Positions 23,501 to 43,400 of a stretch of 64,000 nt of DNA are shown here, one piece after another. This stretch comes from a virus, in the IMG/VR virus record IMGVR_UViG_3300010157_000040, positions 44,698 to 108,697 of that record; one strand, given 5' to 3'. The position numbers and the translations under genes are program-made. A model generated the notes under the pieces. It was given only the letters and a program-made list of their open reading frames with translations, ran no database searches and had not been told where the DNA came from. Within the stretch, counting starts at the first letter, position 1. Every line of letters starts with the position of its first letter.

Positions 23501-23686
23501 GGTGATTATATGCAAACAATTAATTATCAAACTTGGAACCCAAATACAAATTCATATGATAATCAAACAGTAGTAGATAATTCAACTGTTTTTGGAGCAA
23601 ATTTGGAAAACAGTAGAGATGATTTTACACAATGGATAGATAATATGAAAATCCAGAATAAACTTATAGCCAATGGCAACTACTGA
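20591..23686 (+). CDS. Ejection/cargo protein
   Basis: 1031 aa, helical/coiled-coil, N-terminal YIPQFQPFQPD, no Cys seen; precedes the giant ejected proteins. Confidence 0.55.
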   Translation: MATYLQGVTDYIPQFQPFQPDLNFYSNILQTKQSQYDTNWKALNTMYSQYYNADLTRTENADKKDQYIKGIDFNLKRVSQLDLSLEQNVDQATQVFKPFYQDKGLMKDMAWTKNYNAAVGRAESLKTAYDDKQRGQYWATGVTELNYLKDEFKNTTSDKAMNFGNVSYTPYVNVSEKAQKIAKDFGNMETPSFSKDGKFILKTKNGEQLIEPLSKLFESRLGDDPSVQALYKTQAYVNRKDYAYSNAAQFNGDKNAAEMKYLETSFTLLKEKSTARYNALKENSQGYTDKIANLQKQVDDKTASPEIQKQLADLKMNKDINDKVLTRSEEEQKTLNGGQSSTATTTTGFVNPYGDLESLRWKVDNGMASTLMQKDLNESAQLFAYSNYKQDIEANPYAVLEEKNRFSMQQIAARNAGLERAVKLKVAGDAKNTLNAARIAAGTHYLDEETGQVVPYEAFQNIISEPSDQAHTDKLNLKETSKRINDVQAQTTGIPYLKNTVGLIQKLVTEHSMTQQEASAILGYDKNPNISLDSFSKKLDKYGVNWMRNEVGAKNLHQIEKEMTTWLGRNSEQSGLNSEQYQAYRKSAIRFDDYTKYLKEDHEWRKTTSFEVERELRKQGLHGADYLYDNGGNLRTREEFIDIMEKKGKIDSQESKHEIIVSKIDKLANEKHKLLEDRYNNGKHFKNGIEAQQALHKANDSELKAFDQEIIKLRHQLPENLRNGYEMGKIKGNMYDNYEALVNAAGKVYTSGRIKKPLPGMAQFGEMEGTGTFAPRVNTILVNPKGHGPTSVFAGEVFRDLDNNIDWGDNTKNRASFRGFNKGSWDNHSNGDLNSTFRQVYEAMRNEQNTAKSKMGNYKITVSPLAAGSINKVAIVIKPDLTWLKTQVYNVDKDGNQNSPGTISYEQFKNISTYGMNMITDAKNMTNSLYTTAYQSPLQSYVDHHEGGYVYTDPLNPNYNLTIQKGAKGGGDYMQTINYQTWNPNTNSYDNQTVVDNSTVFGANLENSRDDFTQWIDNMKIQNKLIANGNY

Positions 23687-26600: not shown

Positions 26601-29570
26601 TTAGAAATGGTAGATAGAAATAGACAATGGATGAAAGACCTCTATAAAAAAAGAGGTGGTATGTACGATAAAATGGTTAATGAAGAATTAGATTTAGTTA
26701 CAGATAATGCTTTGTTAAACACACTTGCAAATCAAGGTGTTTATATTAGTATTGAAGCATTTGAAAATTGGAAAAATAATGGAATTCCTCCAACAGAATT
26801 TTTTGATAATACTAAAAAAATAATTATACCAGAAGGATCAAGTGACTATGAAAAGTATTATATGTTATTTGAACAAGCTTCACAATTAAAAGATGAAAAA
26901 AGTACACCAATTAGAAAAACTTTTGATAAAGAATTACAAGAAGAGTTAGATAAACTTGATGTACAAAAAGAAGCAGAATTAGCTAATGTTCCTGTAATTG
27001 AAGTTAGAGAAGATATTAAAACTATTAAAAATGAAAATGGTCAAAATTTATCTTTTTCAAATATTGATAATGAACTTTTACCTAATCAATTTGCTGATTG
27101 TAAATTCATTCAAGAAAATGATGATAATGTTAGCAGAAACTTAATTATTCGTAAAGATTCAGATGGTACTTTAACAGATGTTAATGTTGATCAAAAAATA
27201 CCAGAGTCATTAGATCAAACAGTAGAACGTTTTGTATCTGCTGATATTTATGAAATGGTTAACAAACCTAACCCAGAACTTGCACAACCTATCATTGATA
27301 GATATGAAGAGGCAAAGAATAAAATAATGCAAGAATATGCATTAAAAGAAGAAACTGCTGCTAAAACAGAAAGTGAATCAAAAGAAGAATTTGTACCGAT
27401 TACAACTGATATTGATATAGAATCAATGCCTGCTTCATTATATAATAACTTATATAAACTATTCCAAGAAAAACAACTTAAGAAATTAAGTGATGAGGAA
27501 TTTACTAATATGAGTGAAGATGAAGAAAGAAACTTATTTATTAAGTTTATTCAAGGTAATGTTGAAGCTAAACAAATGATTGATGAGTATAATAAAGAAG
27601 CACAAGTTAATCAAGCAACTAAGGAAACTGGAGAAAAAGAAAACTTTCAGTTTATATATCAAGGTAAAACTTTTGATACTGAAAATATAAAAACTTTAGT
27701 AGAATTAAGAACTTTCCAAAGAAGGTTTAAAGCATTACTTAAAACTTTAGAAGATAAGAAAAATCCAACAGCTGATGATTTAGTTTTAAAAAGTAACTAC
27801 ATGGTTTTAATAAAAGACTTTGATAAGTTAATTAATACTAGAGCTAAACAAGGTAGAACTCCTGAAATGCAAACTGCTATTGATTTAATTGAAAAGTTAA
27901 GATCAATGCAAGATGGTATTGAACAATCTACAGAAGGATATAAAATTAATGATATTTTACATGAAAGAGTTAGTAATGTAATATCAAAATTAAAATCAAC
28001 TCCTTATGGATATAAAGATCAATCGGGAATAAATATTGCATTTGGATTAACTATTGGTTCAAATGGATTTAATCAAACTAGTATAGATGCATTTATTAGT
28101 GAGTTAAGAAAAAGAGGATTATCCGGATTTAGTAATTTTACATATAATGAACTTACTAAAGATCTAACAAATCTATTAGATAATATAAATACATTAGAAG
28201 ATACTAGTAATAAAAATTTACTTAAAATTATCAGTGGTTATGTTTCTGAAAAAACATATGAAGAATCTAGAATTTCTGGTAACTACTTAGATGCACAAGT
28301 TAAAAATCTATTTGATGGTAAAGAACCTGTATTTAATGAAGATAACATAACTAGAGAAGCATTTGATAACTTGTTTGGTCCTAAAGGAGTATTATCAGAA
28401 TTAAAAACAAAAGTAGATAACGGTGAATTATATGTAGTTTCTCAAGGTATTAGAGTATATGATACTGAATTAAAAATTGCAGGTGAGATAGATTTACTTG
28501 TAGCGGATACTAAAGGTAACATTACTATTGTGGATCTTAAGTCCGGAGAAAAAAATAAATGGGATGGTTTTAAAGATCCTAATAATAAATTTTCTAAGGA
28601 AGAAGATTACCAATTACAACAAACTGCATATGCTAACTTATTAAATAGAATGTTAGGTATCAATGCAGCAATTGCAATCTTACCAATACAAATGGTTAGA
28701 GAAGCAGAAACAGGTAGAATAATGTCAGCAGGAAAACCTACTGCAAAAAATTTACTTACATCTGATACATTGATTTCATTAAATAAAGCGCCAGTTGCAG
28801 AAAGAATTAATTCTATTATTCCATTAAGAGAAACTAAAGAAGAAGTAATTATAACTCCATCACAAGTTGTTCCGGAAGATAATGAATCATCAGAAGATGA
28901 AGAAACAATAGTACCAGAAGATACTACAGGTAAAGAAGGATTTATTAATGATGCTGATAGAGTAACAGTAAAAGATATACAGAATCAACTTGACAAAGCA
29001 AACACAATAGATGATGTTAAACAAATCATTGCTGATTTAAATAGTAGTGTAAGTCAAGGTTTTGTTACTGCAGATGATGTAGTTCCAATTACAGAAGCAA
29101 TTAAAACTAAAGTATCACAATTAGCTACTCCACAAGAAGTTATTCTTAAGGCAGAAAATTTAGAAAAAGGTACAGAACTTATTGCTAAAAATAATATTAA
29201 TGGTAAAGATTCTCGTATATTTGCTAATACATCAGATGCAGTTATGCAGAATGACATTATAGTAGTAGACTCTATAGATACTAAGTATAAAGTAGTTACT
29301 GCAAGTGTACTAGGTAAATCAATTACATTGCGTATACCATTTAATGAATTGAATGATAACTTTAGTTTAAAAGAAGTAATTATGGGCACAACAGAACAAC
29401 CAGTAGAAACATTAACACCAGAGGATAAATCTTTAATAAATGAAACTACGGATTTAACATCAAGTTTTATTGAAGATACAAACAGAATTGATGAGATAGA
29501 AAAAAGTGCTTCAACTAAATCTATTACAGAGTTAGATGATGATTTGTTGGATGATATAGATTGTAAATAA
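23673..29570 (+). CDS. Giant ejection protein with membrane-channel-like N-terminal region and PD-(D/E)xK nuclease domain
   Basis: G/A-rich hydrophobic helices (TEGIQESLQE, ETFASGFFMGMLA); nuclease HERVS...IAGEIDLL...IVDLKSG...YQLQQTAY (about 27940-28690); ends DCK. Confidence 0.7.
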   Translation: MATTDVDAGFNSLDPLGPEYGKINAPLLDSKGVAPFEGDKIKMPEINFPVTPSFGSSLDMPQHNVRTAIVGSPPNKPGGNKPFDYNAFVKGTKDQLRGQLQTSQDKSSYGKIYSYDAGPDGNAFYKRYQAYGQDTFDKIGFSPLRDNEAVFNSRTTMWDDHKRMMQHSFWPLFGRGFIAGPQSLWKMAQGDFTSTDTEDARAYADAAAIGQTTKGGVMGFTNNMLMNFGYSAGIMSEAIIEEAVGTLVAPETLGGSFFLTTANAAKNTMKAIKGLDIAVDGYKAVNTTLKAVDNINDARNFWKSAANVAKMDFSPIKNTVTALTSLGKTVEKGDQVYNLTNLAKMYKTAGGFYKDVRGFNMALSEARLEAGMVENQIYDNGYNAYYNKFGEAPDNKAQYALLKEAKKGSLDTLYWNTALIYGSNAITFPNIMGPKGGVAGFMKNTIKEFTEVGGGKFGNLGKVVYDQSKKLFAFKKNNLINMVKDYGRQPLYKSVKGTVGYFKSNFTEGIQESLQEVISGANEKYYSDAYDRAVIRSHEYAKGVSRYNVESQGAKSKGEYYKEELKNQKTGQGFETFASGFFMGMLATPLNAAIPHMFVGYNRVFNPKAYQEFKTEKLNITKNVVNNLNAIDMKDFLDSKIFNYATQDAVASIKNTGTKKEAHDADLDGFLSQMNHVNQMGAMGVFRDKLNELKQLTPEEFEDNIPNIPKGEGAKYQAKIDDVVKKTERIEQRYKYYQDKHPNPISNDNLPPKNTPEYEDAVSLYHAWNRGVENAIYFNEAFEDGMKRKVDIQGRFLEQSPLKSMTHRDSEVIFQPKELKKEIGFLKNEIDTLKTLSDPESKQELISKEKKLAAMEKLEKGSSSFSNFFNRYQNTDQIRKMLQEQKGGEEVTDEEVEAVLDNVLGEFSDDNKIKVTSDYESAFKGYLKTTAELNDDYLFDQKVDESFALLMDHHKLDHESKGLMKYINLLHDPGGFLEMVDRNRQWMKDLYKKRGGMYDKMVNEELDLVTDNALLNTLANQGVYISIEAFENWKNNGIPPTEFFDNTKKIIIPEGSSDYEKYYMLFEQASQLKDEKSTPIRKTFDKELQEELDKLDVQKEAELANVPVIEVREDIKTIKNENGQNLSFSNIDNELLPNQFADCKFIQENDDNVSRNLIIRKDSDGTLTDVNVDQKIPESLDQTVERFVSADIYEMVNKPNPELAQPIIDRYEEAKNKIMQEYALKEETAAKTESESKEEFVPITTDIDIESMPASLYNNLYKLFQEKQLKKLSDEEFTNMSEDEERNLFIKFIQGNVEAKQMIDEYNKEAQVNQATKETGEKENFQFIYQGKTFDTENIKTLVELRTFQRRFKALLKTLEDKKNPTADDLVLKSNYMVLIKDFDKLINTRAKQGRTPEMQTAIDLIEKLRSMQDGIEQSTEGYKINDILHERVSNVISKLKSTPYGYKDQSGINIAFGLTIGSNGFNQTSIDAFISELRKRGLSGFSNFTYNELTKDLTNLLDNINTLEDTSNKNLLKIISGYVSEKTYEESRISGNYLDAQVKNLFDGKEPVFNEDNITREAFDNLFGPKGVLSELKTKVDNGELYVVSQGIRVYDTELKIAGEIDLLVADTKGNITIVDLKSGEKNKWDGFKDPNNKFSKEEDYQLQQTAYANLLNRMLGINAAIAILPIQMVREAETGRIMSAGKPTAKNLLTSDTLISLNKAPVAERINSIIPLRETKEEVIITPSQVVPEDNESSEDEETIVPEDTTGKEGFINDADRVTVKDIQNQLDKANTIDDVKQIIADLNSSVSQGFVTADDVVPITEAIKTKVSQLATPQEVILKAENLEKGTELIAKNNINGKDSRIFANTSDAVMQNDIIVVDSIDTKYKVVTASVLGKSITLRIPFNELNDNFSLKEVIMGTTEQPVETLTPEDKSLINETTDLTSSFIEDTNRIDEIEKSASTKSITELDDDLLDDIDCK

Positions 29571-29571
29571 T

Positions 29572-32500
29572 ATGAAAATTACTTGTTCTTTAAAGCAGTC
29601 TCAAATTGAGAAACTGTATGCAAATATTTATGGGCACCTATTAGATAGTCAAAATAAAGGAAAAACTTTTGACTCTAAAGGATACATGATAAACTTATTT
29701 AATAAGATTGCTACAAAAGGTGATGTAGAAACGGCTGCAAAATTTTTACAACAAGTACCTACATTAATTGGTACTGCATCATTTAGACCATCTTTAGAAG
29801 AATTAGGTTTGCCAACAGATATGTTAAGACCTTTAATTAAAAGTTTTAAGAATGAAGATGCGGGTTTATTAAATGTAGTTAGTTATTTTAATCCTACATT
29901 AAATATTAATGTACAACAAGAATTAATTGATCAATCAGAAAAGAATGCATTTGTTGTACCAGAAAATGATTCTGAAACTGTTACTAAAGATCTGTTTGAT
30001 TATTTACCCTATGACTCTTTTTCTACTACATTTCAAGAATTCTTAACTGTAGATCCAGATAAAGCTGCAACAAATGAACAACTTGATGTAAATAGAAAAG
30101 TTATTTATGCAACACTTAAAGAACTTAAAAAAACTATTGGAACTACACCTAATTTAGGTAAACTTGTATATCAAAATGTTACTTTAAAATTAGTACCACA
30201 AAGACTAGATACTGCTGATACAGATGAGTTAGATAAAACAACAAAAAGATTACAAAATAGATCAGAATTTTTAAATAGAAAAGGTGTAGCTCAACCTAAT
30301 GTAACTAAACCAAATGAAATTTTCTTAATGATAATTTCAAATGAAATAGGTGAACCAGTTTATTTTAATGATGAAGGATCAATTACTACAAAAGAAGAAG
30401 GTGGTAAACAAGTTTATCAATTCTTAAGAGATGCAAGAAAAAAAGGTGATAGATATACAGTAACTGATATTTATGGAAAAGATAATCAGATACTTAATGC
30501 AAAAGAACTTGCAACATTAATGGATAAAAATTCAAAAATTAAATTAAGTAAAGAAGAATTTAATAATTTAGTTGCAGAATTAGATAAAAAACAACAAGAA
30601 GAATTTAAACAGTTATATAACTTTAGACAACGTTTGATTAAAGGTGAAATACCATTAATTAATATAACAGATGTAAGTCAAGGTATAAAAGAATATACCA
30701 ATAAAGAAATTACATTAAGTAATATAAGAAGATATCCGTTTGGTACAGATCATGTATTTAAAACAATACAAACTATTAAGACTCCAAGAGGTCAGTTTAA
30801 AAAAGGTGAAGCAACAATTACTATAGAGGGTCAAGAATTTAAAATTGATAGACCAAACTTGACAGATGATTTAATTAAAAAAATTGCAACAGTATTAACT
30901 GATAAAAATTTAAGTAAAGAACTAAGATATAGATTTTATTCACAATTTTTAGCAAATAAAGCATCTCTTGCAACAAGAAAACATACTTTATCTTATACTC
31001 CTGTTACAGATGAATTGATTTTTTCTTATTCAAAAAAAACATTTCAAGAAGGATACGATAGTAAGTTTACTGATGTTATGTTAGATAGTGATACAGCATA
31101 CACAGAAATATATGATGCATTAAAATTAGCTTCAGGTAAAAATGGTAATTACTTTTCTGCTAAAATGACTTATAATAAAGACTTGTTAAACATTAATGGT
31201 TATCAAGATTATAATTTAGATACAAAAGAATTATCAGAAGATTTTATTCCTTATATTCCATTGCTTGAAACTCTTCCTAATACAAAGGTAGATGCTAGTG
31301 TAACTAGTAATCCAAGATTTTTTAATTCATATATGAAGTTTGCACTTCCAAATGAGTTTACACAACAATTAGAAGAAGCACAAAACAGTTCAAATGATGC
31401 AGAAAAAGATGATTTCTTTGAAACTTTATCCGCACCTTCTGATGTAGAAAATTTAATGCCCAGTGAAAAGAAAAAAGTTATTGTTGATACACTTAAGTCT
31501 GATAAGAAAATAGTAGGAACAATTACTAAACCTTTTGGTTCAGATACTAAATGGAAATTTATTACTGCAAAAGGAACAACAATAGATTTTTATTCTCATA
31601 CAAATAATATTACTGATTTAGATACAGTTGCTCAAGCTAATTTAAACTTACTTCCAGAAGTTGACTTTAATGGAAAAGTAATGACAGATGTTGTTGAGGT
31701 TAGAATAGGAGATAAAGTAATTGGTTATGTAAGAGAAACAGATGACTTTGATAAAGTAAATATTGTTGAACCAACAAAGTCTCAAGAAGAAATTGATGCA
31801 GAAATAGAAGAAAAAATTAATCCTAAAAACACAAGTCATCCATCTGAAGATAGTTTATTTTTTACTAGGTCGGGTGATTTAACTAATAATGTAACAGAAT
31901 CTGAAATTAAAGATGCTCATACATGGTGGGCTAAGTCAGATTTAACTAAACATATTGGTTTTAAAGAAGCAGTAAACATAGTTAATTCTGATGCATATGC
32001 AAGATTTATGACTTATGGTGCTAGACTTAACGGTACATTAGGTACTATAGAAATTGCAAATAAAGGTTCTATGGTTGATGTTTATCATGAAGCATGGCAC
32101 GGATTTTCACAATTGTATTTAACTAGAAAACAAAAAACCTCTTTATACAAAGAAGTAAGAAGAAAATTAGGAAGAAATAAAAAATTATCATTCTTTGAAA
32201 TAGAAGAAATAATTGCTGAAGAATTTAGAGAGTATGCAAAAAATCCTAAACCTAAACCTGATTCACCAGTAAGAAATACTATATTTAGAATAATATTAAA
32301 CTTTTTAAGAGAAGTTTTTGGAAAAGGTAGTGTTACAAATGTTAGAGATATTAAAAAAGTTCAAGAATTATTTGATAATTTATATTTAAACAAAAATCTT
32401 AATAAGTATACTCCTACTATTGATAATGTAATGTTTGATTTATTATATAGAAATAGTGGTATTGTTAAACCAGGAACATTAACTGATCAAGTACTAGATA

Positions 32501-35500: not shown

Positions 35501-38500
35501 GTTCTAAAGTAGGTAGTGTAACTTCTAATGGTAAAGCAGATCAAATATATGATGCTAACTCTGACGAAAAGATTTTAAAAACAGATATTAAATTTACTCC
35601 AAATACTATTTATGTTGATTATTTAAAAAATGTAACTGCTGTTCCATCTAAATTTAAAAACAAAACAGTTTTTTCAACACAGTTGAGAAAATTAATTCTT
35701 AGTAATTTATATGAAAATGGTAAAATCATTAATTCTGATAATACAAAAGCAATAAAAGAATATGAAGCTGCAGTAGATCATCATAGTAATTTATTAAAAT
35801 TAGAATTACTTAATGAAATAGGATACGAGCATGATGTAAAGAATAATAAATATTATGGTAATGTAGATAAATTTTTAGATGTGGTTCAAGCTGAACTTGA
35901 AAAAAGAGATTTACCAGAACATTTAATTCAAATGGTTGGTCTTACTAGAGACAAGTCTTTAAGAACAGATTTATCATTACATTTAAAAGCAGATGAGATA
36001 GAAAAAATTCTTGTTGCTTTAGTTGAAAAAAGATTAATTAAACAAAAAGTTAAAGGTGAAGCATTAGTTCAGGTATCCAGTGCAATGACTAATGGTATAT
36101 GGGATCAAAAAACTAAATTTAAAAATGCTACAGTAGCTGATGTTAAAAAATTCATGGGTAGTAATAACTTACCTTTCTATCATCAAGATGCATCTGGTAA
36201 TACATTAGCTATGAAAGTTGCTATTGCTTTACAAGGTGACTTTGTTAACTTACTTAAACTTAATCATTTAGATGGTCAACCTATAGGTACAAGAGCTAGA
36301 TTAAATGATATGATTAAAGAAGACAAGTGGTTAGACTTAAATGATAATAGAAAGTCTGTTACTTTATCTGCTGTAAGAATACCAGTACAAGGATTAAACT
36401 CTATGGAGTTTATGGAAGTATATGAATTTTTAGATCCAGCTGCAGGAAATATTATTATTCCTCCATCTGAAATTGTTGCTAAATCAGGAGCTGACTTTGA
36501 TGTTGATAAGTTAACTACATTTATGCCACACATAGATTACAAAGGTAATTATGTGAAAGGTCAATTAAGTAATGAGGAGTTACTTAAAAAAGTTAATAAA
36601 CTTAATGAAACTCCAGAAGGTAAAAAACTTGCAACTAATTTAATTAAGTCTCAAAAATCCGCATCTGAAAATAATTTAATAGCAACAATCAGAGGTATAC
36701 TTGAACTAAAAGATAATTTTGCTAGTTTAATTAGACCAAATGATACATATTTATTAAAAGAAATAGCCGATGAGTTACAAGATCATGTAACAGATTACAA
36801 TAGATTTGGAAATGTACATAATGAAAATAGAACAGGACTTAAAAATCAAAAAGTTATTAGTCCTACTAGAGTATTAGAAGCAGGTTATAATTTACATAAA
36901 CATGAAGCCAACATGGTTGGTAAGAGAGTGTTAGGTATTATTGCTGTAGAAAATGCATTACATCCTATCTTTAATGCTATTGGTGCAGCAATGCCTAAAA
37001 CATATAAAGAGTCAAGTTATGTAGGTAACAAGTATATTGATGGTAAAATTGACTATGATACTAGAATACTACTACCTACAAATATGACAAAGGATGGTAG
37101 AATTTCATTGTCTGGAACTGAAACTTCTGATGGTATGGATAACATAGGAGAATTATTTTCTCAAATGTTAAATGGTGCTGTGGATGTTGAAAAAGATGCA
37201 TGGATATTCTTTATTCAAGGTAACTATGAATTAATTCCAATGCTTACATTTTTGTTTAAAGCAGGTGTACCTAAAGAACAAGCAATTATGTTTGTATCAC
37301 AACCACTTGTTAGAGAATATGCAAAACAACAAAGAGAAGTAAAGAGTGCATATGCTACACTTACTGGTGTTGTACCTGAAGATTATAATCCAATGTTTGC
37401 TAAATATACAGCAGCACAAAATACATTAGAAGGTAAGAATCTTAACAGTGTAATTAATAAAGCTACTGCATTAAAAGTTAAAGATGTTTTAAGTTTACAA
37501 GGTGATACAGAAATAAAGTTTGCAGAAAATAAAGTATATAAAACTAAAAAAGCAAGTACTATACTAAAAGAAATTAAAGATGGTACTATAGATCCAACAA
37601 AAATTACCTATATGGTAAATAATGAAACTGGTGAAAAAATATTCAAACCAATTGGAAAACATCCTGTATCTAATGCAAACTTTTATTATACAGCTAAAGC
37701 AGCAACAGAAAATAAAAAAGAATTTTCATTAGAAGAATTAAAGCAAAATGTAGTTGATAATGATAGTACTTCACCACAAGCAATTGCAGCTTTCTTACAT
37801 TTATTAGAAATTGAAAAGTCATCAAAAGGATTCAGTGTATTAAAAATGCAAGCAAATCCGGATACTAAAACATCTAAGACAATTCAAGAAATAATTAAAA
37901 GAAACTTATCACTTGAAGATATTAAAGAATTATCAAAATTAGAACCAGGATTAGTAGACAAATTACAAAAGTCAATACTAGGTACTTTCTTTGATAACAA
38001 ACTAATTAAAGATTTAGTAGTACCAGTATTCCAATTAAGAAATAATGATGTTGTTACTTCAACTATTTTAAAATTACTAGATAAAAACTCAAATTCAATA
38101 GCAGAAAAGTTTGGTAAAGGTCAAGATGGTGCTAGTCAGTTTATTACACAGTTTAAAAATGCAATTCCTAATTACATTTATCAAAACTATATGTCTCACT
38201 TTATTGATAAAGCAGGTAATTTAACTGATACTCCAACTGAATTTAATGAACTTACCGTAAAAAATGTAGCGGGAACTACTAATGGAGCAAAAGTAGTAGG
38301 TAATAATATATATGTAGATACGGAAAGACTAAGAAATGAATTTGAAAATAAACTGTACACAAGAGAAAGTACACTTGAAGGTAACTATAAAGAATCTGGA
38401 TTAAGAGGATTTAAACTTCAAGATGATATGTTCCCTAACTTATCTTCTTATGTAAGATATGTATATGAAAGAGAATATCAAAGACATTTATATCCAATTG

Positions 38501-40395
38501 ATTCTTTAAAAACTAATAAAGATTATTTAAAGTTTAAATCAGATTTTAAATCTGCAGGTGTAGATGAAAGTAAATTAACTGATGTAGCATATGAAGCATA
38601 TCTAAATCAAAGAGCATTAATAAATGCATTTAATAGAGAAGCAATTATGGGTATGGAAGATTATTCATATACTGATATGGTTTTAAATATGGTAGAAGAA
38701 TTTTCTAACTTAAAACATAAGTATCCAATTGTTAATCAATTCACTAAACCTAAAGTTGTTACAAGAAATATACACGGTCAGGTACTTAAAGAAAATTATG
38801 TTTTAACATTAAATGATGTTAAAGAATTAAAAGATGGTCAACTTGCAGAAGTATATTACCAAAATATAAAAGATCTTGGAGATGAAACTGTAAAGAAAGT
38901 ATCTAATATAGAAGATAATAAAAGAATTAGTAAATTATTTAGTCTGTTGCCTATGATGATGATATATCAACATGGTTTAGGATATAGTAAATATGGATTT
39001 AATGAAGCATTACCATATAATGATTTTATAGGTGTAATGCAAACAGCAGCAGATATTTATGAAGATAAAATTCTTAATGAACAATCTTTATATTCTATTT
39101 ATAATTTACTAATGAATGAGAATAATGCAAACTTTAAAGATTATGTTGCACCAAGAGCTAAAGATTATAAAAATCCAGTTGCTAGTGAATTCTCAAATCC
39201 TGTAGTAACAACTGTTGAAGAATTAGATGATAGCATGAGAGCATTATTAATGAAAAATGCTGTTCCTGTAGTACAACCATCTACTAATGTTGAATATAAT
39301 TATAATCCATCAAATGTATCTGAGCAAACAAGAGATGATTATAAACAATATGTATTAAAACAACTTGGAAAACCTGAAATTAAAGCTAAAGCAAATGCAT
39401 TTGATTTTATATATCCAGATTTAACAATTACAATATCTAAAGATGGTTCTCTTAGTTACACAAATGTTAATCAAAAAATTGTAGATTTATCTAAAACAGA
39501 TTCTGGATATGATCTTAAATTTATGGTTGGTTTAAATAAATTAGCTGAAGAGTTTACTCAACCATCTGCTAGTGTTGAAACAGAAGTAGTAATTCCAGGT
39601 GTTGAAATTAAAAGAAATGTTATAACTAAAGAAGAACAACTTGAGTTATTTAATATTCTTAAACCTTATATTGAAAAACAAGGAGCCACAACCAATAAAG
39701 CTACTAGTGCAAATGTAATGATTGGATTAGGTTTAAGATGGGATTATAAATCAAATAATCCTAATTATAAAGCTATTGAAATAAAAAATATTATTGTACC
39801 TGGAAGTAGTGCTAAGTATGGTTATTATGAAGTATCTATTAATGGTCAACCATTAGGTCCTATTAATCCTAGAATTAAAACATTAATGTCTAAAGCTACT
39901 GGTATAGATGCTACTGATTATGATGGGGCTATAATAAATCTTTATACAGATAAAACTTTTATAAGTGCTCATAATGATGTAGATGAAGCTGCTGATGCTA
40001 TTGGATATCCTGTACTTGTTTTAAATATAGGTGGAAGTGGCAATTTTAGTGTACAACAAACTGGAAAATATGAACCTACTCCTCTTAATTCTGGAGACTC
40101 ATATATTTTTGGAATAAATGGAGAAAACAGAAAAGTAATGCATAGAACTTTTCCTTCTAAACAAGATGGATTTTTACCTGCAATAACTACAGCAATAGAT
40201 GGAGAAACTTATTCAAAAGGAAGTTATAGATTATCTATTACTTTAAGAAGAGTAAAAAATCTAAAACCAGGAATGCCTACAGTACCAGCTAAAGTTGTTA
40301 CTCAACCATCTACTAGTGAACCTACAGATATAGTTAAAACAATTAGTCCTAATGGTAAACCACCAATTGAAAGAACATCATCAGATTGTGAATAA
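29572..40395 (+). CDS. Virion-packaged RNA polymerase (crAss-like/phi14:2 gp66 type) with zincin domain and C-terminal AlkB-like domain
   Basis: Catalytic RIPVQG...GADFDVDKL (DxDxD near 36493) and DGQG motif; zincin HEAWH...EEIIAEEF (about 32080-32230); 2OG-Fe(II) motifs INLY, HND, H, RLSITLR (about 39590-40255). Confidence 0.88.
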   Translation: MKITCSLKQSQIEKLYANIYGHLLDSQNKGKTFDSKGYMINLFNKIATKGDVETAAKFLQQVPTLIGTASFRPSLEELGLPTDMLRPLIKSFKNEDAGLLNVVSYFNPTLNINVQQELIDQSEKNAFVVPENDSETVTKDLFDYLPYDSFSTTFQEFLTVDPDKAATNEQLDVNRKVIYATLKELKKTIGTTPNLGKLVYQNVTLKLVPQRLDTADTDELDKTTKRLQNRSEFLNRKGVAQPNVTKPNEIFLMIISNEIGEPVYFNDEGSITTKEEGGKQVYQFLRDARKKGDRYTVTDIYGKDNQILNAKELATLMDKNSKIKLSKEEFNNLVAELDKKQQEEFKQLYNFRQRLIKGEIPLINITDVSQGIKEYTNKEITLSNIRRYPFGTDHVFKTIQTIKTPRGQFKKGEATITIEGQEFKIDRPNLTDDLIKKIATVLTDKNLSKELRYRFYSQFLANKASLATRKHTLSYTPVTDELIFSYSKKTFQEGYDSKFTDVMLDSDTAYTEIYDALKLASGKNGNYFSAKMTYNKDLLNINGYQDYNLDTKELSEDFIPYIPLLETLPNTKVDASVTSNPRFFNSYMKFALPNEFTQQLEEAQNSSNDAEKDDFFETLSAPSDVENLMPSEKKKVIVDTLKSDKKIVGTITKPFGSDTKWKFITAKGTTIDFYSHTNNITDLDTVAQANLNLLPEVDFNGKVMTDVVEVRIGDKVIGYVRETDDFDKVNIVEPTKSQEEIDAEIEEKINPKNTSHPSEDSLFFTRSGDLTNNVTESEIKDAHTWWAKSDLTKHIGFKEAVNIVNSDAYARFMTYGARLNGTLGTIEIANKGSMVDVYHEAWHGFSQLYLTRKQKTSLYKEVRRKLGRNKKLSFFEIEEIIAEEFREYAKNPKPKPDSPVRNTIFRIILNFLREVFGKGSVTNVRDIKKVQELFDNLYLNKNLNKYTPTIDNVMFDLLYRNSGIVKPGTLTDQVLDRQDSNLIKDSMDSIISDLVDSDNGIKGNKSGTLAILLDSRNRDELYKLININLNKSLSHYKSTLEKLDDKDENKNTKEVLENRVRILQAAVDNYGNSKSGVIQYHIENSTFDLIKQKYTTLELDEEGNLFDPNNTDNTERYGDTKVGEKSLIQLAGKETLYILKSLHEVVDGKIKYNELGYKKLAPFRTTWNNTVRAISGLQDPQEMYDKLVEESKVSPEFKQLTENKLANPLNSKNPNEQKAITSFWQDFNKPRVPYIQFTIFKKTDENPKGSSEVTEASIETKTVINKFQNKFKADINSVYIKRIGKENIPTLDISEIVKDFSDANGNLDISKSYEFARAIGFYLDDIGIIKNTLKKDESTIQQFGLPYIFNAVKVLNRKDKLPVKSALVSKWISKFKTNPIKTLTEAIPVGVIGPDIFKQKNKVEALARLQGRYGVDSSNFGVFNAERNLVFEHIDNNSITKIVYALNNAEKLSDLWESDKFNYTKFLDPKINSFTNRSGILRSLFDMRDPKKSKLKDRDLELFMNSGTQVEQSAVGLNTTSLDVNSKMLQEMNTMLKGGVQEFMRHASKSSSFGARINGGIVGKPGKQGSDERLWVDIDMFAKNIAHDYAFTAHLLPYMESEAERIFKCNSNLDTFKNYVGYNRELSNGRIAGQEFTAFDNVLTDNTKELIYAAINKAIKNKELFNLGTFLKNNPTLLSTVKKETAFYFADQTRENLYKLTTSNYISPSLREKLNVFNITEDAQDKVLVDAYTYNAWIHNFETASLFYGDIVQYNHDKEEMHKRNTGATSGGRTFRTDISAQNFANGYLADTSYAKKHNATPISYNGTFNTAIIKDIERTSIYYPDFEKALREDYTKRFSKVLDKSKVAAAVEDRVAKEIKKYKDMEEGDGQGWITFDAYRLLKTNENSWSNAQEVLFQKINNNQPIEATEITEMFPVYKLQNFGHLANTDLLAPINAMHKFALMPLIPSMIEGTDLESLHQQMMSKNIQYLTFQTGSKVGSVTSNGKADQIYDANSDEKILKTDIKFTPNTIYVDYLKNVTAVPSKFKNKTVFSTQLRKLILSNLYENGKIINSDNTKAIKEYEAAVDHHSNLLKLELLNEIGYEHDVKNNKYYGNVDKFLDVVQAELEKRDLPEHLIQMVGLTRDKSLRTDLSLHLKADEIEKILVALVEKRLIKQKVKGEALVQVSSAMTNGIWDQKTKFKNATVADVKKFMGSNNLPFYHQDASGNTLAMKVAIALQGDFVNLLKLNHLDGQPIGTRARLNDMIKEDKWLDLNDNRKSVTLSAVRIPVQGLNSMEFMEVYEFLDPAAGNIIIPPSEIVAKSGADFDVDKLTTFMPHIDYKGNYVKGQLSNEELLKKVNKLNETPEGKKLATNLIKSQKSASENNLIATIRGILELKDNFASLIRPNDTYLLKEIADELQDHVTDYNRFGNVHNENRTGLKNQKVISPTRVLEAGYNLHKHEANMVGKRVLGIIAVENALHPIFNAIGAAMPKTYKESSYVGNKYIDGKIDYDTRILLPTNMTKDGRISLSGTETSDGMDNIGELFSQMLNGAVDVEKDAWIFFIQGNYELIPMLTFLFKAGVPKEQAIMFVSQPLVREYAKQQREVKSAYATLTGVVPEDYNPMFAKYTAAQNTLEGKNLNSVINKATALKVKDVLSLQGDTEIKFAENKVYKTKKASTILKEIKDGTIDPTKITYMVNNETGEKIFKPIGKHPVSNANFYYTAKAATENKKEFSLEELKQNVVDNDSTSPQAIAAFLHLLEIEKSSKGFSVLKMQANPDTKTSKTIQEIIKRNLSLEDIKELSKLEPGLVDKLQKSILGTFFDNKLIKDLVVPVFQLRNNDVVTSTILKLLDKNSNSIAEKFGKGQDGASQFITQFKNAIPNYIYQNYMSHFIDKAGNLTDTPTEFNELTVKNVAGTTNGAKVVGNNIYVDTERLRNEFENKLYTRESTLEGNYKESGLRGFKLQDDMFPNLSSYVRYVYEREYQRHLYPIDSLKTNKDYLKFKSDFKSAGVDESKLTDVAYEAYLNQRALINAFNREAIMGMEDYSYTDMVLNMVEEFSNLKHKYPIVNQFTKPKVVTRNIHGQVLKENYVLTLNDVKELKDGQLAEVYYQNIKDLGDETVKKVSNIEDNKRISKLFSLLPMMMIYQHGLGYSKYGFNEALPYNDFIGVMQTAADIYEDKILNEQSLYSIYNLLMNENNANFKDYVAPRAKDYKNPVASEFSNPVVTTVEELDDSMRALLMKNAVPVVQPSTNVEYNYNPSNVSEQTRDDYKQYVLKQLGKPEIKAKANAFDFIYPDLTITISKDGSLSYTNVNQKIVDLSKTDSGYDLKFMVGLNKLAEEFTQPSASVETEVVIPGVEIKRNVITKEEQLELFNILKPYIEKQGATTNKATSANVMIGLGLRWDYKSNNPNYKAIEIKNIIVPGSSAKYGYYEVSINGQPLGPINPRIKTLMSKATGIDATDYDGAIINLYTDKTFISAHNDVDEAADAIGYPVLVLNIGGSGNFSVQQTGKYEPTPLNSGDSYIFGINGENRKVMHRTFPSKQDGFLPAITTAIDGETYSKGSYRLSITLRRVKNLKPGMPTVPAKVVTQPSTSEPTDIVKTISPNGKPPIERTSSDCE
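39274..40318 (+). repeat. Three in-frame direct repeats CAACCATCT[AG]CTA[AG]TG, cores starting at 39274, 39559 and 40303
   Basis: GTACAACCATCTACTAATGTTGAA / ACTCAACCATCTGCTAGTGTTGAA / ACTCAACCATCTACTAGTGAA; spacings 285 and 744 bp, both multiples of 3. Confidence 0.85.
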
Positions 40396-40402
40396 AAATA
40401 AG

Positions 40403-40412
40403 TACATTTATA
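40403..40412 (+). promoter_or_regulatory. TACATTTATA putative late-promoter motif
   Basis: Same motif and the same 14-nt distance to the ATG as at 12407-12416. Confidence 0.4.
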
Positions 40413-40426
40413 ATATAATTTAAGTT

Positions 40427-43400
40427 ATGCCTTGTCCTATTAAAATAAAAGAATTTTTAACTAATCAAGTTTTTGAAAAAGGTCAAGCAGGTCTTTTTAT
40501 GAGAAAAGAACTTGCTGATAAATTAGCTGCAGATATTAATGCTGAGTATGATGCTAAAGTTATAAAATTTACTAAGTACTTTGATCACTTAGAAAGAGAA
40601 ATTACTATTCCTCAATCTTTAATTGATGAGTATTATGATGCAGAACTTCAAGAAGAAATTAAAGAAATGAAATCTGCAGAAAGAGAAGCAGAAGAACAAC
40701 AACTACAAGAAGATATAAGAGCAGGTAAAGTATTAGTAGAAAATCTTGATGTAGATACAGATAATAATGATTATAACTTTAATGAAAACTTTACTGAAGA
40801 CTATTACAAAACTAAAGTAATAGAAAATAGAGACTTACAAATTGCTCAAAAACTTGGTGAAAAATATGCTAAAGCATTTAATGTTTCATATTCTATAATT
40901 ACACCAGGAGAAGCAGCAATCTTATTAGAAGATAGTCCAACACCATTTACATCTGATGTATCTTCATTTTTTTATGATAATGCTATTTACTTTATAGAAG
41001 GTAAATTTACTGCAGCATCTGTATTACATGAATTTGCTCACCCATTAGTTAAAGGTATAGCATTTCAAAATCCAAAGTTATTTCAAAATTTGTTTTCACA
41101 GCTCACTAGTACTAATACTGGAATTGATGCATTAACAAAAGTAAAAGATAAGTATCCGGAACTTGATGAGGATTCAGATAGATTTAAAGAAGAAGCAATT
41201 GTTACAGCCATGGAAATGGATGCTGCAATGGAAATTGAAAATGTTAAAAATAATGACAGTGCATTTGCTAAGTTTATACAAAACTTAATTTTTGCAATTA
41301 AAAAAGTTATTAAAGCTTTAACAGGAAATATTAATCTTAAAAACTTATCTACATCAACTACCAGAGATGAGTTAGTTAATATGATGCTTAATGAAGATTT
41401 TCAAATAGAAGATTTAAAATATCAGTTATCATTATTTGCTGAATTTAAAAAAGATACGGAAGATTATATTAAAGAACTTAAAGATACTACACCTAAAAAA
41501 TTAGTTGAAGCAATTAATAAGTTTCATAATGAAATGACTTTCCAAATTGGTGTACTTAAAAATTCTCCTAAAAAACTTAGAGAAGAACTAAAAGGAAAAG
41601 AAGGATTAGATGTATTACGTAATATAAAAGATTATGTAAAAGGTTATAAAACTGCAGGAGAAGATTTAACTGAAGAAGAATTAGAAGAATTATTTAAAAA
41701 TTTAGGTGAAGAACAAGATGACTTAAGAGTACGTTCACTTGCATTTATAAATAGTTTAACTGAGTTAGAAGTTTTTGCAAGAAGAGTACAAACTTTACTA
41801 TCTGATATGAGAAAGTCAGATAAGTTTATGACTTATGATGGTAATGGTAAAATTCAATATTTTAAACAATTCATGGAGAGAGAAGTAAAATTCTTGAATG
41901 AAGTAAGAAGATCACTTGCATTAGATCCTTCTAATGAATTAGTTAAAAAAATATTAGCAATTAAAGCAGTTGTTGAAGATAATGTTGAAAATGCTAAAGA
42001 AATGACATTTGAATTTGTTAAAGGGTTTTTTATGGAAAACAGTATAACAATGCAAAAAAATGTTAAAGAAAAATTAGAAGAAACAATTGATAGAGTTTTA
42101 AAAGCTGAAAAATTTACCCAGGATGACATTGATGTATTTAAAGATGATTTATTTAATAAGTTAGATATAGATAATATTAAAGGAATAAAACAATCAGATT
42201 TTTTATTACCAAGTATTCCTAAAGGAGCAAAATATATTTTATCAGAAATTGGTAATTATAATTCAAACAAAATTACTGAAGAAACAGTAGATAATTATTT
42301 AAGAGGTCATGTAAGAGATTTAGGTATGATGGGATCACTTGCAACTCCTATGGGTAATGTTAATGATATGTTTGGATCTTTTGTAAATTTTATGAAATCT
42401 AAATTATCAAATGCTGAAGTTAAAAGTTTAGATAAACAATATAAGATAGCTGAAGAATTACAACCTTATTTAAATGCTGTTGGAATAAATCATAATGATA
42501 CTAAAGCTATTGCAGATTTAGTATTATTTATTGATACTGTACCAGATACAGATGAACATGGAAATTTTATTGAAAAACAAATCTATGCATATCTTGATAA
42601 ATTTCAAAACTGGAGAGCAGATAGAGGTAAGTTAGAATTTGATTTAGAAAAAGCTAGAACTTTAGGAAAGAAAGATGAAATAAAAGCAGCTATGCAAGCT
42701 CGGTGGGAGTTTGATGAAAAATACATGCAACGGAAGTATGTAGATGCTGTTTATGATGTTAAAAAGATGTGGAGACAAGATAATGTTTTATTAAATCCTG
42801 CAACAGGAAAAGAAATAAAAATATCTGCAAGTACTTCTATTGAAGCATATATGGAAAGACAATCTGCATTAGATGATTTGGCAACATTTAATAGTTCAAA
42901 CTTTACTGAATTAGATGATCTTAATGAATTTACTCCTTCAAAAGCTGCTAAAATTAAATATGATGAATTGTTTAACATGTTTAATTTAAACGGTGAATAT
43001 AAACAAGGTAAAGAATTAGAAAAAGTATTAATAAGAAGAGCATACAGAGAACAGTCTAGAAAATTTAATGAGAGCACTACTAATATTGATAAAGTACAAA
43101 AAGATTTAGATCATTTTGTTAATGTAACTTTAGCTGGTATGGGTATAACTAAAGATTCTGATTCTGCAAAATATGAATCTGAGATTGCTAAGTTTACTAG
43201 TAAAAACTTTAAGATAGCATATACTAATGAATACTTTCAAGAAAGAAATGCAACATTAGATGCTATTAAAAAAATAAATGAAAAAACAAAAGGGTCAGAT
43301 ATTTCTAAACAGTTAGCTAATTTATATGAACAAAGATATAATTTAGTAAATAGAGTAACTGATAAAGATGGAGAACCTAATGGTTTAATGTTAGGTCAAG

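What the first reader, a model, noticed from the sequence alone, without database searches (positions are those of the whole stretch)
29559..40438. Matched terminal cysteines suggest the three giant ejected proteins are chained head-to-tail
Seen: the 1965-aa protein ends ...DIDCK* and the RNAP starts MKITC; the RNAP ends ...SSDCE* and the 1956-aa protein starts MPCP. By eye these roughly 7500 residues contain only about six Cys (the others are FADCKF and IFKCNS). Four lie within five residues of a terminus, only at the two internal junctions; the outer ends have none. Both C-termini are D-C-[K/E]. The Cys cap sits beyond the last repeat of the RNAP cassette array, so cassette exchange would preserve it. 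Inference: disulfide (or metal) links join the products in gene order into a 1:1:1 chain that is packaged and threaded through the tail in sequence, then released in the reducing cytoplasm.
Basis: partly seen in the sequence, partly recalled or inferred. Interest (0 to 1): 0.85.

Follow-up and report, generated by a model that had tools for sequence, protein, structure and literature searches.

The report
Terminal cysteines chain crAss-like cargo proteins
Three giant proteins of this lake crAss-like phage, with its particle-borne RNA polymerase in the middle, have almost no cysteine except one at each end that faces the next protein. Relatives keep such a pair wherever the proteins are separate and lack it wherever they are fused, which points to untested end-to-end, probably disulfide, links.

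Summary
The 1965-, 3607- and 1956-aa proteins hold six Cys in 7,528 residues, and four of them sit 2-5 residues from the termini that face a gene junction (chance about 7e-10).

The pattern is strongly conserved:
- About 70 homologues of the first protein have one Cys, C-terminal.
- About 80 homologues of the middle protein have two, at position ~5 and at the C-terminal end.
- About 90 homologues of the last have one, at position 3-6.
- In 78 IMG/VR loci plus the window, 142 junctions carry both cysteines, 85 carry neither, and 2 are discordant (both wrong start calls).

Natural experiments agree. Extra proteins inserted in the series carry a Cys at both ends. B+C fusions (p-crAssphage, crAss002) and A+B fusions (Suoliviridae, probably Fpv1) lack the pair at the fused joint. 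ΦcrAss001 and DAC15 keep the pattern although the first gene lies on the other strand.

A direct precedent exists in an unrelated cyanophage: cryo-EM shows a Cys1715(gp27)-Cys5(gp26) disulfide in phage A4.

The bond itself, the stoichiometry, threading and reductive release are untested for crassviruses. I found no paper describing the rule. This scan has already noted the same pattern on many other crAss-like genomes.

The parts
23673..29570 (+). Gene A, 1965 aa, first link. It has a PD-(D/E)XK nuclease domain (aa 1589-1676) and an acidic C-terminal tail ...LDDDLLDDIDCK. It is the orthologue of ΦcrAss001 gp47.
   Evidence: BLAST to gp47 E=3e-9; family alignment A2 has C1964 invariant.
29562..29564 (+). 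TGT codon of A Cys1964, two residues from the C-terminus.
   Evidence: 71 of 73 homologues have a Cys in the last 8 residues, and 69 have no other Cys.
29572..40395 (+). Gene B, 3607 aa, middle link: the virion RNA polymerase homologue. It carries DFDVD at aa 2308-2312 and an invariant HEAWH at 839-843, followed by a variable C-terminal cassette region and a short Cys cap.
   Evidence: BLAST to phi14:2 gp077 (PDB 6VR4) E=1e-25 and to ΦcrAss001 gp50; motifs.
29584..29586 (+). TGT codon of B Cys5 (MKITC).
   Evidence: C5 is invariant in alignment A1. The structure model leaves residues 1-8 uncoiled ahead of helix 9-28, with low confidence at 1-4.
39601..40248 (+). AlkB-like 2OG-Fe(II) oxygenase cassette of B (aa 3344-3559), lying between linker repeats and before the Cys cap.
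   Evidence: Pfam PF13532 E=6.5e-12; repeats. Homologues carry other cassettes here (PF08719, PF18760, PF25176) before the same cap.
40387..40389 (+). TGT codon of B Cys3606, two residues from the C-terminus (...RTSSDCE).
   Evidence: 78 of 86 homologues have both terminal Cys; the 8 exceptions are truncated, given an upstream start, or (P0038) have the Cys nine residues from the end, just outside the 8-residue window.
40427..46297 (+). Gene C, 1956 aa, last link. It has an invariant zincin motif HEFAH (aa 201-205) and a LysM domain (aa 1644-1672). It is the orthologue of ΦcrAss001 gp49 and phi14:2 gp076 (weak similarity plus synteny), and it is the last gene of the + strand block.
   Evidence: BLAST to gp49 E=5e-4.
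40433..40435 (+). TGT codon of C Cys3 (MPCP).
   Evidence: 94 of 96 homologues have a Cys in the first 8 residues, and 89 have no other Cys.
27099..27101 (+). A Cys1143 (FADCKF), an internal cysteine that is not conserved.
   Evidence: It is shared only by the 95%-identical homologue P0087 (Cys 1143); the other A homologues lack it.
34396..34398 (+). B Cys1609 (IFKCNS), an internal cysteine that is not conserved.
   Evidence: Nearly all B homologues have exactly two Cys.

Best explanation
A, B (the virion RNA polymerase) and C are cargo proteins of a crAss-like phage. I propose they are joined end to end by two inter-chain disulfide bonds: A Cys1964 to B Cys5, and B Cys3606 to C Cys3. This would make one unbranched thread of about 7,500 residues. 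All other cysteines have been purged, so no wrong or branching cross-link can form. Because the bonds sit at the extreme termini, the joined chain stays as thin as a single polypeptide apart from a few residues at each joint, and it can pass the narrow portal and tail channel partly unfolded. The link would fix co-packaging of one copy of each protein and make each protein pull the next out during ejection. Thiol reductants in the host cytoplasm would then free the polymerase and its partners.

Shown here: the cysteine pattern, its conservation, its strict pairing, and its gain and loss with polypeptide breaks and fusions.

Shown by others: homologues of these proteins are in virions (phi14:2, ΦcrAss001); crassvirus virions contain inter-subunit disulfides; and one such C-terminus-to-Cys5 disulfide exists in cyanophage A4.

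Inferred: the bond in crassviruses, the 1:1:1 ratio, ordered threading and reductive release.
For: 1. Window: four of six Cys in 7,528 residues lie at the junction-facing termini (P=7e-10).

2. Families from a 5.8-billion-protein search:
- A: 71 of 73 have a C-terminal Cys, and 69 have no other.
- B: 78 of 86 have Cys at about position 5 plus one in the last 1-8 residues, and 76 have no other.
- C: 94 of 96 have Cys at position 3-6, and 89 have no other.

3. In 78 IMG/VR loci plus the window, 142 junctions have both Cys, 85 have neither, and 2 are discordant; both discordant cases are upstream-ATG artefacts. Forty dereplicated complete chains hold 307,041 residues, 166 junction Cys and 12 other Cys.

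4. Extra links carry a Cys at both ends. Proteins of 242-307 aa, 655 aa and 762 aa lying between B and the last protein each have exactly two Cys, at position 3 and at or within 3 residues of the end. L057 has five links. Their C-terminal cap domain is homologous to the C-terminal cap of B in loci that lack them.

5. Fusions replace the pair with a peptide bond in the same orientation:
- B+C fused in p-crAssphage gp44 and crAss002 gp33: the A/B pair is kept and there is no C-terminal Cys.
- A+B fused in three Suoliviridae and probably Fpv1: only the B/C pair is kept.

6. The pattern does not depend on gene adjacency. ΦcrAss001 has gp47 [2339 of 2341], gp50 [5, 1334, 2404 of 2412] and gp49 [5]; DAC15 has gp078, gp076 and gp077. 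In both, the first gene is on the other strand. Both TGT and TGC codons are used.

7. phi14:2 has gp078 [1797 of 1797], gp077 (the 6VR4 vRNAP) [3, 2179 of 2180] and gp076 [3]. All three are annotated as MS-verified structural proteins.

8. Precedent: A4 gp27 (1717 aa, sole Cys 1715) and gp26 (1114 aa, sole Cys 5) are disulfide-bonded in the cryo-EM map (PMC12002296; sequences).

9. ΦcrAss001 virions contain gp47, gp49 and gp50 and have many inter-subunit disulfides in the tail (PMC10172136).

10. The two junction types have different conserved contexts. A ends LL-[DN]-D-[LI]-x-C, with a net charge of about -5 over the last 15 residues, and B starts MK[IV]TC[AS]LSQSQ. B ends R-[TS]-S-x-D-C-[QK], and C starts MPCxIKIK. 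This fits cognate pairing.
Against: - No physical evidence for the bond in any crassvirus; these proteins were not resolved in the ΦcrAss001 maps.
- Virions assemble in a reducing cytoplasm, and gut crassviruses live without oxygen, so when and how oxidation would occur is unknown. No thioredoxin was found in this phage genome; the Erv1 search was uninformative because its control found nothing anywhere.
- In gut crassviruses the purge is not absolute: ΦcrAss001 gp50 has Cys1334, DAC15 gp076 has three internal Cys, and p-crAssphage gp44 has seven.
- p-crAssphage gp47 (857 aa) has a lone Cys856 with no N-terminal Cys in the next protein, so a terminal Cys can exist without the neighbour partner.
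- Chemistry alone would also allow A-B-A, C-B-C or B polymers. The A-B-C order rests on gene order and on the fusions.
Confidence: 0.7

Rival explanations
1. The same facing termini are joined, but not by a disulfide. The link would be a bridging metal ion (Zn, Fe or Cu held by the two thiolates plus neighbouring Asp/Glu) or another thiol-based covalent bond.
For: One Cys per terminus with conserved acidic neighbours (D-C at both C-termini in the window) could help bind a metal. A metal bridge would form in a reducing cytoplasm, which removes the oxidation problem.
Against: Two thiolates alone make a weak site, and no conserved His or second Cys lies near either partner. In many homologues the C-terminal Cys is the very last residue, preceded by I, F or K rather than D or E. 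The one solved case (A4) is a disulfide.
Confidence: 0.1
2. The terminal cysteines pair only after ejection. They are oxidised in the host periplasm (by Dsb-type enzymes, or by oxygen outside the cell) and assemble or lock a trans-envelope ejection conduit. They do not tie the cargo together inside the capsid.
For: Cys avoidance in ejection proteins has been explained by passage through the oxidising periplasm (PMC11445570). C carries LysM and a zincin motif, which suggests work in the cell wall.
Against: B is an RNA polymerase that must reach the cytoplasm. In A4 the bond is already present in the packaged virion. Fusion of B to C or of A to B shows the proteins can be permanently joined before packaging.
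Confidence: 0.07
3. Each terminal cysteine attaches its protein to something else (portal, inner capsid or other cargo), or makes homodimers (A-A, C-C) and B polymers. It does not attach to the neighbouring gene product.
For: p-crAssphage gp47 has a lone C-terminal Cys without a partner in the next protein. Tail and portal-vertex proteins of ΦcrAss001 do use disulfides.
Against: The valence pattern is always 1, 2..., 2, 1, with 142 paired junctions against 0 truly unpaired ones. Inserted proteins always carry both Cys. A fusion removes exactly the two Cys that face each other and leaves the others. None of this is expected for attachment to a third party.
Confidence: 0.07
4. The pattern is a by-product of DNA-level signals at gene junctions (translational coupling, start and stop contexts), or of chance on a Cys-poor background.
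For: In the window the C-terminal TGT codons lie 5-40 nt upstream of the next start codon.
Against: The pattern persists when the genes are not adjacent or are on opposite strands (ΦcrAss001, DAC15). Both Cys codons are used (TGT 241, TGC 45). The position varies by a few residues while the residue is kept. Chance is about 7e-10 for the window alone.
Confidence: 0.01

Closest known systems
Cyanopodophage A4 (Anabaena phage A-4L) pre-ejectosome proteins gp27 and gp26, PNAS 2025, PMC12002296
   Same: These are adjacent ejection-protein genes. gp27 (1717 aa) has a single Cys at 1715, and gp26 (1114 aa) has a single Cys at 5. Cryo-EM shows these two residues disulfide-bonded in the packaged virion, with the C-terminal helix of gp27 lying in a cleft of gp26. 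The signature is the same as at each junction here.
   Different: There is only one link between two proteins, present in five copies as part of a symmetric ring on the portal, and no RNA polymerase is involved. I found no sequence similarity to A, B or C by BLAST or profile comparison, and no fold match for the B N-terminal domain. The paper reports the bond as a structural detail and does not state a general rule.
Crassvirales virion RNA polymerase and its two partner proteins: phi14:2 gp078-gp077-gp076 in GenBank numbering (the vRNAP, gp077, is called gp66 in the literature, PDB 6VR4; its neighbours are gp65 and gp67) and ΦcrAss001 gp47-gp50-gp49
   Same: They are homologous proteins and carry the same terminal-cysteine pattern. 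They are known to be in virions and, in some phages, to be fused into one polyprotein (preprint 10.1101/2020.03.07.982082; PMC10172136).
   Different: Neither paper contains the word cysteine or a disulfide statement about these proteins. The window's B is much longer (3607 aa), carries an AlkB cassette, and has the HExxH motif in its N-terminal third. Its clade also has 4- and 5-link chains.
Cysteine-free ejection proteins of Schitoviridae (N4 gp50 vRNAP, gp51, gp52; DEV gp71-73), PMC11445570
   Same: These are giant ejected proteins, including a virion RNA polymerase, with extreme Cys depletion (0.00075% against 0.865% for the proteome). Non-terminal Cys here are at 0.004%.
   Different: The N4-like proteins have no cysteines at all. 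Crassviruses keep exactly one at each facing terminus.

Membership tests
Crassvirales cargo triad (vRNAP plus two partners) | The middle protein is homologous to the two-barrel virion RNAP and carries the DFDxD catalytic motif. | tested here: met
   B against phi14:2 gp077 (6VR4) E=1e-25, also against ΦcrAss001 gp50, DAC15 gp076, p-crAssphage gp44 and crAss002 gp33. DFDVD lies at 2308-2312, and G-x-D-x-D-x-D-K is invariant.
Crassvirales cargo triad (vRNAP plus two partners) | The flanking proteins are homologous to gp47-type and gp49-type partners. | tested here: met
   A against ΦcrAss001 gp47 E=3e-9. C against gp49 only E=5e-4 (weak), supported by position and by the shared zincin HExxH at about residue 200-245, as in phi14:2 gp076.
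Crassvirales cargo triad (vRNAP plus two partners) | The proteins are packaged in the virion and ejected. | not testable with these tools
   Shown by MS only for phi14:2 and ΦcrAss001 homologues. Here it is inferred from position after the tail and muzzle genes.
Terminal disulfide between consecutive ejection proteins (A4 gp27-gp26 type) | A sole or near-sole Cys within a few residues of the C-terminus of one protein and at about position 5 of the next. | tested here: met
Terminal disulfide between consecutive ejection proteins (A4 gp27-gp26 type) | The S-S bond is physically present in the virion. | not testable with these tools
   This needs non-reducing gels, cross-link MS or cryo-EM.
Terminal disulfide between consecutive ejection proteins (A4 gp27-gp26 type) | Sequence or fold homology to A4 gp27 or gp26. 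| tested here: not met
   BLAST found none. hhalign gave probability below 1%. Foldseek with the B N-terminal model found no match at E<=0.001. The resemblance is therefore in mechanism, not in detectable descent.
Cys-free ejection operon (Schitoviridae type) | Complete absence of cysteine from the ejected proteins. | tested here: not met
   Depletion is met (0.004% non-terminal Cys), but the terminal Cys are strictly retained.

The most novel reading that the evidence does not exclude
The terminal cysteine caps are a general, evolvable coupling system for phage cargo. Any protein that carries an 'M-x-C...' head and a '...C' tail can be spliced into the ejected thread as an extra link; this clade has 3 to 5 links and swappable AlkB, NADAR and ADP-ribosyltransferase cassettes. 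Reduction of the joints in the cytoplasm would be the long-sought switch that releases and activates the auto-inhibited virion RNA polymerase, so that early transcription is gated by redox state and not by proteolysis.
Probability: 0.3. Interest if true: 0.85.

Novelty: new variant of a known kind. Interest (0 to 1): 0.78.

Why it matters
How crassviruses, the most abundant phages of the human gut, pack and deliver close to a megadalton of protein, including their RNA polymerase, is an open question.

A covalent end-to-end tether would explain four things:
- co-packaging of the proteins in fixed ratio;
- the order in which they are ejected;
- why the three proteins can be fused or split freely in evolution;
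- the extreme purge of cysteines.

It also offers a simple release and activation step for the polymerase.

The idea can be tested at once on cultured phages (phi14:2, ΦcrAss001, DAC15) with non-reducing gels and cross-link mass spectrometry. The rule is also a practical annotation aid. It marks true start codons (crAss002 gp33), identifies which neighbouring genes belong to the ejected set, and flags extra cargo links.

Tried and rejected
- Complex prediction on B residues 1-320 with A residues 1786-1965 gave no verdict: median 0.55 against a control at 0.40. It is not used as evidence either way.
- The AlphaFold model of B 1-320 (mean pLDDT 74) was searched against the PDB with Foldseek. There was no match at E<=0.001 and nothing resembling A4 gp26.
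- hhalign of the A and C family alignments against A4 gp27 and gp26 found no similarity.
- Megablast and tblastn of the window's B against the GenBank phage collection found no match. The search for related loci with a single A fragment found none. An alignment query was needed.
- phmmer of A, B and C against PDB sequences gave only LysM for C and nothing significant for A or B.
- A local MAFFT run timed out. Local HMMs of A1-A3 against cultured-phage proteins recovered only phi14:2 gp077, so A and C orthology rests on BLAST.
- BLAST did not show that the N-terminal 2,400 residues of Fpv1 gp33 are A-like, so that fusion is called 'probable' only.
- Searches of the phage's own 108.7-kb record found no thioredoxin. 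They also found no Erv1/Alr sulfhydryl oxidase, but that control found nothing anywhere, so the result is uninformative.
- Rejected ideas:
  - Lipoprotein or signal-peptide cysteine: there is no signal peptide, and the Cys is at position 3-6.
  - Intein or native-chemical-ligation chemistry: the Cys is not residue 1 and there is no intein-sized domain.
  - A translational-coupling artefact: see the rival explanations.
Full report
**What is in the window**

The + strand block of the window ends with three giant genes:

| Gene | Coordinates | Length |
|---|---|---|
| A | 23673..29570 | 1965 aa |
| B | 29572..40395 | 3607 aa |
| C | 40427..46297 | 1956 aa |

A has Cys 1143 and 1964 and ends ...DIDCK. 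B has Cys 5, 1609 and 3606, starts MKITC and ends ...SSDCE. C has only Cys 3 and starts MPCP. That makes six Cys in 7,528 residues. The non-cargo genes of the window mostly carry 0.5-4% Cys, and the window as a whole carries 0.59%.

Four of the six lie 2-5 residues from a terminus, and only at the two internal junctions. The binomial chance of that is 7e-10. The junction DNA is shown; all four terminal codons are TGT. The window is part of a 108.7-kb IMG/VR virus record, about 91% complete.

**What the proteins are**

- B is the virion RNA polymerase homologue.
  - It matches phi14:2 gp077 at E=1e-25, and also ΦcrAss001 gp50, DAC15 gp076, p-crAssphage gp44 and crAss002 gp33. phi14:2 gp077 is the protein of PDB 6VR4.
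  - It carries DFDVD at 2308-2312 inside an invariant G-A-D-F-D-V-D-K, and an invariant HEAWH at 839-843.
  - Its C-terminal part holds an AlkB-like 2OG-Fe(II) oxygenase domain (Pfam E=6.5e-12) between short direct repeats.
- A has a PD-(D/E)XK nuclease domain and matches ΦcrAss001 gp47 at E=3e-9.
- C has LysM and an invariant zincin HEFAH motif. It matches ΦcrAss001 gp49 only weakly (E=5e-4).

Upstream lie tail-fibre and virion structural genes. On the opposite strand lie replication genes. ΦcrAss001 gp47, gp49 and gp50 were found in virions by mass spectrometry and assigned to the capsid cargo zone (PMC10172136). The three phi14:2 proteins are annotated as MS-verified structural proteins.

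**Conservation in homologues**

Three searches of a 5.8-billion-protein collection gave 86 B, 73 A and 96 C homologues, down to about 25-30% identity. The results:

| Family | Expected terminal pattern | No other Cys | Non-terminal Cys / residues |
|---|---|---|---|
| A | 71 of 73: Cys in last 8 residues | 69 | 2 / 150,527 |
| B | 78 of 86: Cys at ~5 and in last 1-8 residues | 76 | 5 / 307,357 |
| C | 94 of 96: Cys at position 3-6 | 89 | 14 / 204,116 |

Seven of the eight B exceptions are proteins truncated at contig ends or given an upstream start (for example MTLNVKTMKVTC); in the eighth (P0038) the Cys lies nine residues from the end, just outside the 8-residue window. The window's two internal Cys are not conserved.

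**Synteny and the pairing rule**

An alignment of 26 B proteins (A1) retrieved 78 IMG/VR loci with 10-kb flanks. Wherever the flanks reach, the order is the same:

- a protein of about 600-1,200 aa with no Cys;
- A, with a C-terminal Cys only;
- B, with both terminal Cys;
- C, with an N-terminal Cys only.

Over all adjacent same-strand ORFs, 142 junctions have a Cys on both facing termini, 85 have none, and 2 are discordant. Both discordant cases arise from an ATG upstream of the real MK(I/V)TC start. Both Cys codons occur (TGT 241, TGC 45), so selection acts on the residue. In 40 dereplicated complete chains there are 307,041 residues, 166 junction cysteines and 12 others, which is 0.004%.

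**Natural experiments: splits and inserted links**

In several loci further proteins lie between B and the last protein. Each has exactly two Cys, at position 3 and at or within 3 residues of the C-terminus:

| Locus | Extra protein(s) |
|---|---|
| L009 | 242 aa |
| L010, L013 | 252 aa |
| L014 | 261 aa |
| L033, L051 | 307 aa |
| L038 | 655 aa |
| L057 | 762 aa and 300 aa (two extra links, five in all) |

The roughly 120-aa C-terminal cap of these proteins (...ILKxIC) is homologous to the C-terminal cap of B in loci that lack them. The last 46 residues of the 762-aa protein match the C-terminus of an unsplit B. One locus (L003) has a 6,381-aa B with two polymerase cores and only two Cys, at residues 5 and 6381; the next ORF starts MSCP.

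**Natural experiments: fusions**

- In p-crAssphage and crAss002, B and C are one protein.
  - The polymerase motif lies near residue 1430-1500, and gp49-like sequence lies at about residue 3,530 onward.
  - A (gp45 or gp32) still ends in Cys, and the fusion still starts M-S-C. In crAss002 this holds only if translation starts at Met33, which suggests the annotated start is wrong.
  - There is no C-terminal Cys.
- In three Suoliviridae (cr50_1, cr1_1, cr109_1) a 4,300-4,800-aa protein carries the polymerase motif at about 3,150-3,450. It has no N-terminal Cys but has a Cys 1-3 residues from its end, and the next protein has Cys at 3-5. Flavobacterium phage Fpv1 looks the same: gp33 (4,401 aa) has a sole Cys at 4400, and gp34 has Cys 3. 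I could not show that the front part of Fpv1 gp33 is A-like.

In each case a peptide bond replaces exactly the proposed link, in the proposed orientation, and only the two cysteines that would have faced each other are missing.

**Independence from gene adjacency**

In ΦcrAss001, gp47 is on the + strand and gp50-gp49 are on the - strand. The pattern is nevertheless the same:

- gp47: Cys 2339 of 2341;
- gp50: Cys 5, 1334 and 2404 of 2412;
- gp49: Cys 5.

DAC15 is arranged likewise. phi14:2 shows the cleanest case: gp078 has Cys 1797 of 1797, gp077 has Cys 3 and 2179 of 2180, and gp076 has Cys 3. This rules out a DNA-level junction signal.

**Mechanism**

The valence pattern 1, 2, ..., 2, 1, the strict pairing, and the behaviour at splits and fusions are what a linear covalent chain predicts. 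They are hard to explain by attachment to third parties.

A disulfide is the simplest bond, and it has a direct structural precedent. In cyanopodophage A4 the C-terminal helix of gp27 lies in a cleft of gp26 and is fixed by a Cys1715-Cys5 disulfide in the packaged virion (PMC12002296). I checked the A-4L genome: gp27 (1717 aa) and gp26 (1114 aa) each have that one cysteine only. I found no sequence or fold relationship to the crass proteins, so the likeness is in mechanism.

Three other observations fit this reading:
- ΦcrAss001 virions are known to contain many inter-subunit disulfides in the tail and portal vertex.
- The model of B 1-320 leaves residues 1-8 uncoiled ahead of the first helix, with low confidence at 1-4, as a tether would need.
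- The two junction types have different conserved contexts (a very acidic amphipathic A tail against MK[IV]TCALSQSQ, and R-T-S-x-D-C-Q against MPCxIKIK), which could give cognate pairing.

Terminal placement keeps the chain unbranched and thin enough for a channel with constrictions of less than 50 Å, which the cargo must pass partly unfolded. The purge of all other Cys would prevent jamming cross-links. Ordered ejection and release by cytoplasmic reductants are inference.

**Comparison with the literature**

Cys depletion of ejected proteins is known: N4-like vRNAP and its partners are essentially Cys-free (PMC11445570). What differs here is the strict retention of one Cys at each facing terminus.

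The phi14:2 vRNAP preprint notes that the three proteins are in virions, and that they are fused into one polyprotein in some phages. It does not contain the words cysteine or disulfide. The ΦcrAss001 atlas reports disulfides only for tail and vertex proteins. Six full-text searches found no description of the rule for crassviruses.

**Earlier notes of this scan**

The same pattern has already been noted and followed up on many other crAss-like genomes in this scan: 163 notes in at least 137 genomes. The lead to the A4 paper came from those notes, and I verified it myself. This window adds four points from its lake clade:
- 3- to 5-link chains;
- the cap kept beyond swappable AlkB, NADAR and ART cassettes;
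- a 6,381-aa two-Cys polymerase;
- the complementary fusions across three crassvirus families.

**Caveats**

- No physical evidence exists for the bond in crassviruses.
- The time and place of oxidation are unknown.
- Gut crassviruses tolerate a few internal Cys.
- p-crAssphage gp47 has a lone C-terminal Cys without a partner in the neighbouring protein.
- The complex prediction gave no verdict.

Noticed in passing
L003:7386-26531: A 6,381-aa B homologue with two RNA-polymerase-like cores. Residues about 1750-2610 and about 5150-5900 both match phi14:2 gp077 and the window's B. It has only two Cys, at residues 5 and 6381.
   Followed up: partly
window 18224-20527: The 767-aa protein inside the otherwise Cys-poor cargo block has eight Cys in four close pairs within 55 residues: three C-x-C (449/451, 469/471, 480/482) and one C-x-x-C (500/503). 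This looks like a small metal-binding or knotted module.
   Followed up: no
window 12431-18214: The 1927-aa cargo protein has just two Cys, 14 residues apart, in a repeated motif (G-C-F-P-T-Q at 395 and N-C-F-P-R-Q at 409). The 908-aa (9642-12368) and 1031-aa (20591-23686) proteins have none.
   Followed up: no
window 32086-32100 (B aa 839-843) and 41027-41041 (C aa 201-205): Both B and C carry invariant HExxH zincin-type motifs (HEAWH and HEFAH). In ΦcrAss001, p-crAssphage and crAss002 an HExxH lies near the C-terminus of the A-type protein instead. The position of this motif relative to the A/B break may therefore differ between clades; homology of these regions was not tested.
   Followed up: partly
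P0001-P0086 (B homologues), C-terminal regions: The region before the Cys cap carries different enzyme cassettes in different phages: PF08719 (NADAR/YbiA), PF13532 (AlkB-like), PF18760 (ART-PolyVal), PF25176, and in P0082 helicase domains. The arrangement resembles the swappable C-terminal cassettes of polymorphic toxins, placed here on a virion RNA polymerase.
   Followed up: partly
L082:12088-24825 (crAss002 gp33): The annotated start is probably 32 codons too far upstream. Residues 33-35 read M-S-C, like the start of p-crAssphage gp44 (MSCGN).
   Followed up: partly
L080:1588-4161 (p-crAssphage gp47) and L082:1393-3066 (crAss002 gp30): Smaller cargo-block proteins have a single Cys near the C-terminus: Cys856 of 857 in ...QSCR, and Cys550 of 557 in ...FRCGGKK. 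The following protein has no N-terminal Cys, so the partner is unknown.
   Followed up: no
L088 (cr109_1, Suoliviridae): Table 11 translation of the giant genes shows many in-frame stops (70 in gp53), which fits stop-codon reassignment in this phage. The terminal Cys pattern still holds.
   Followed up: no
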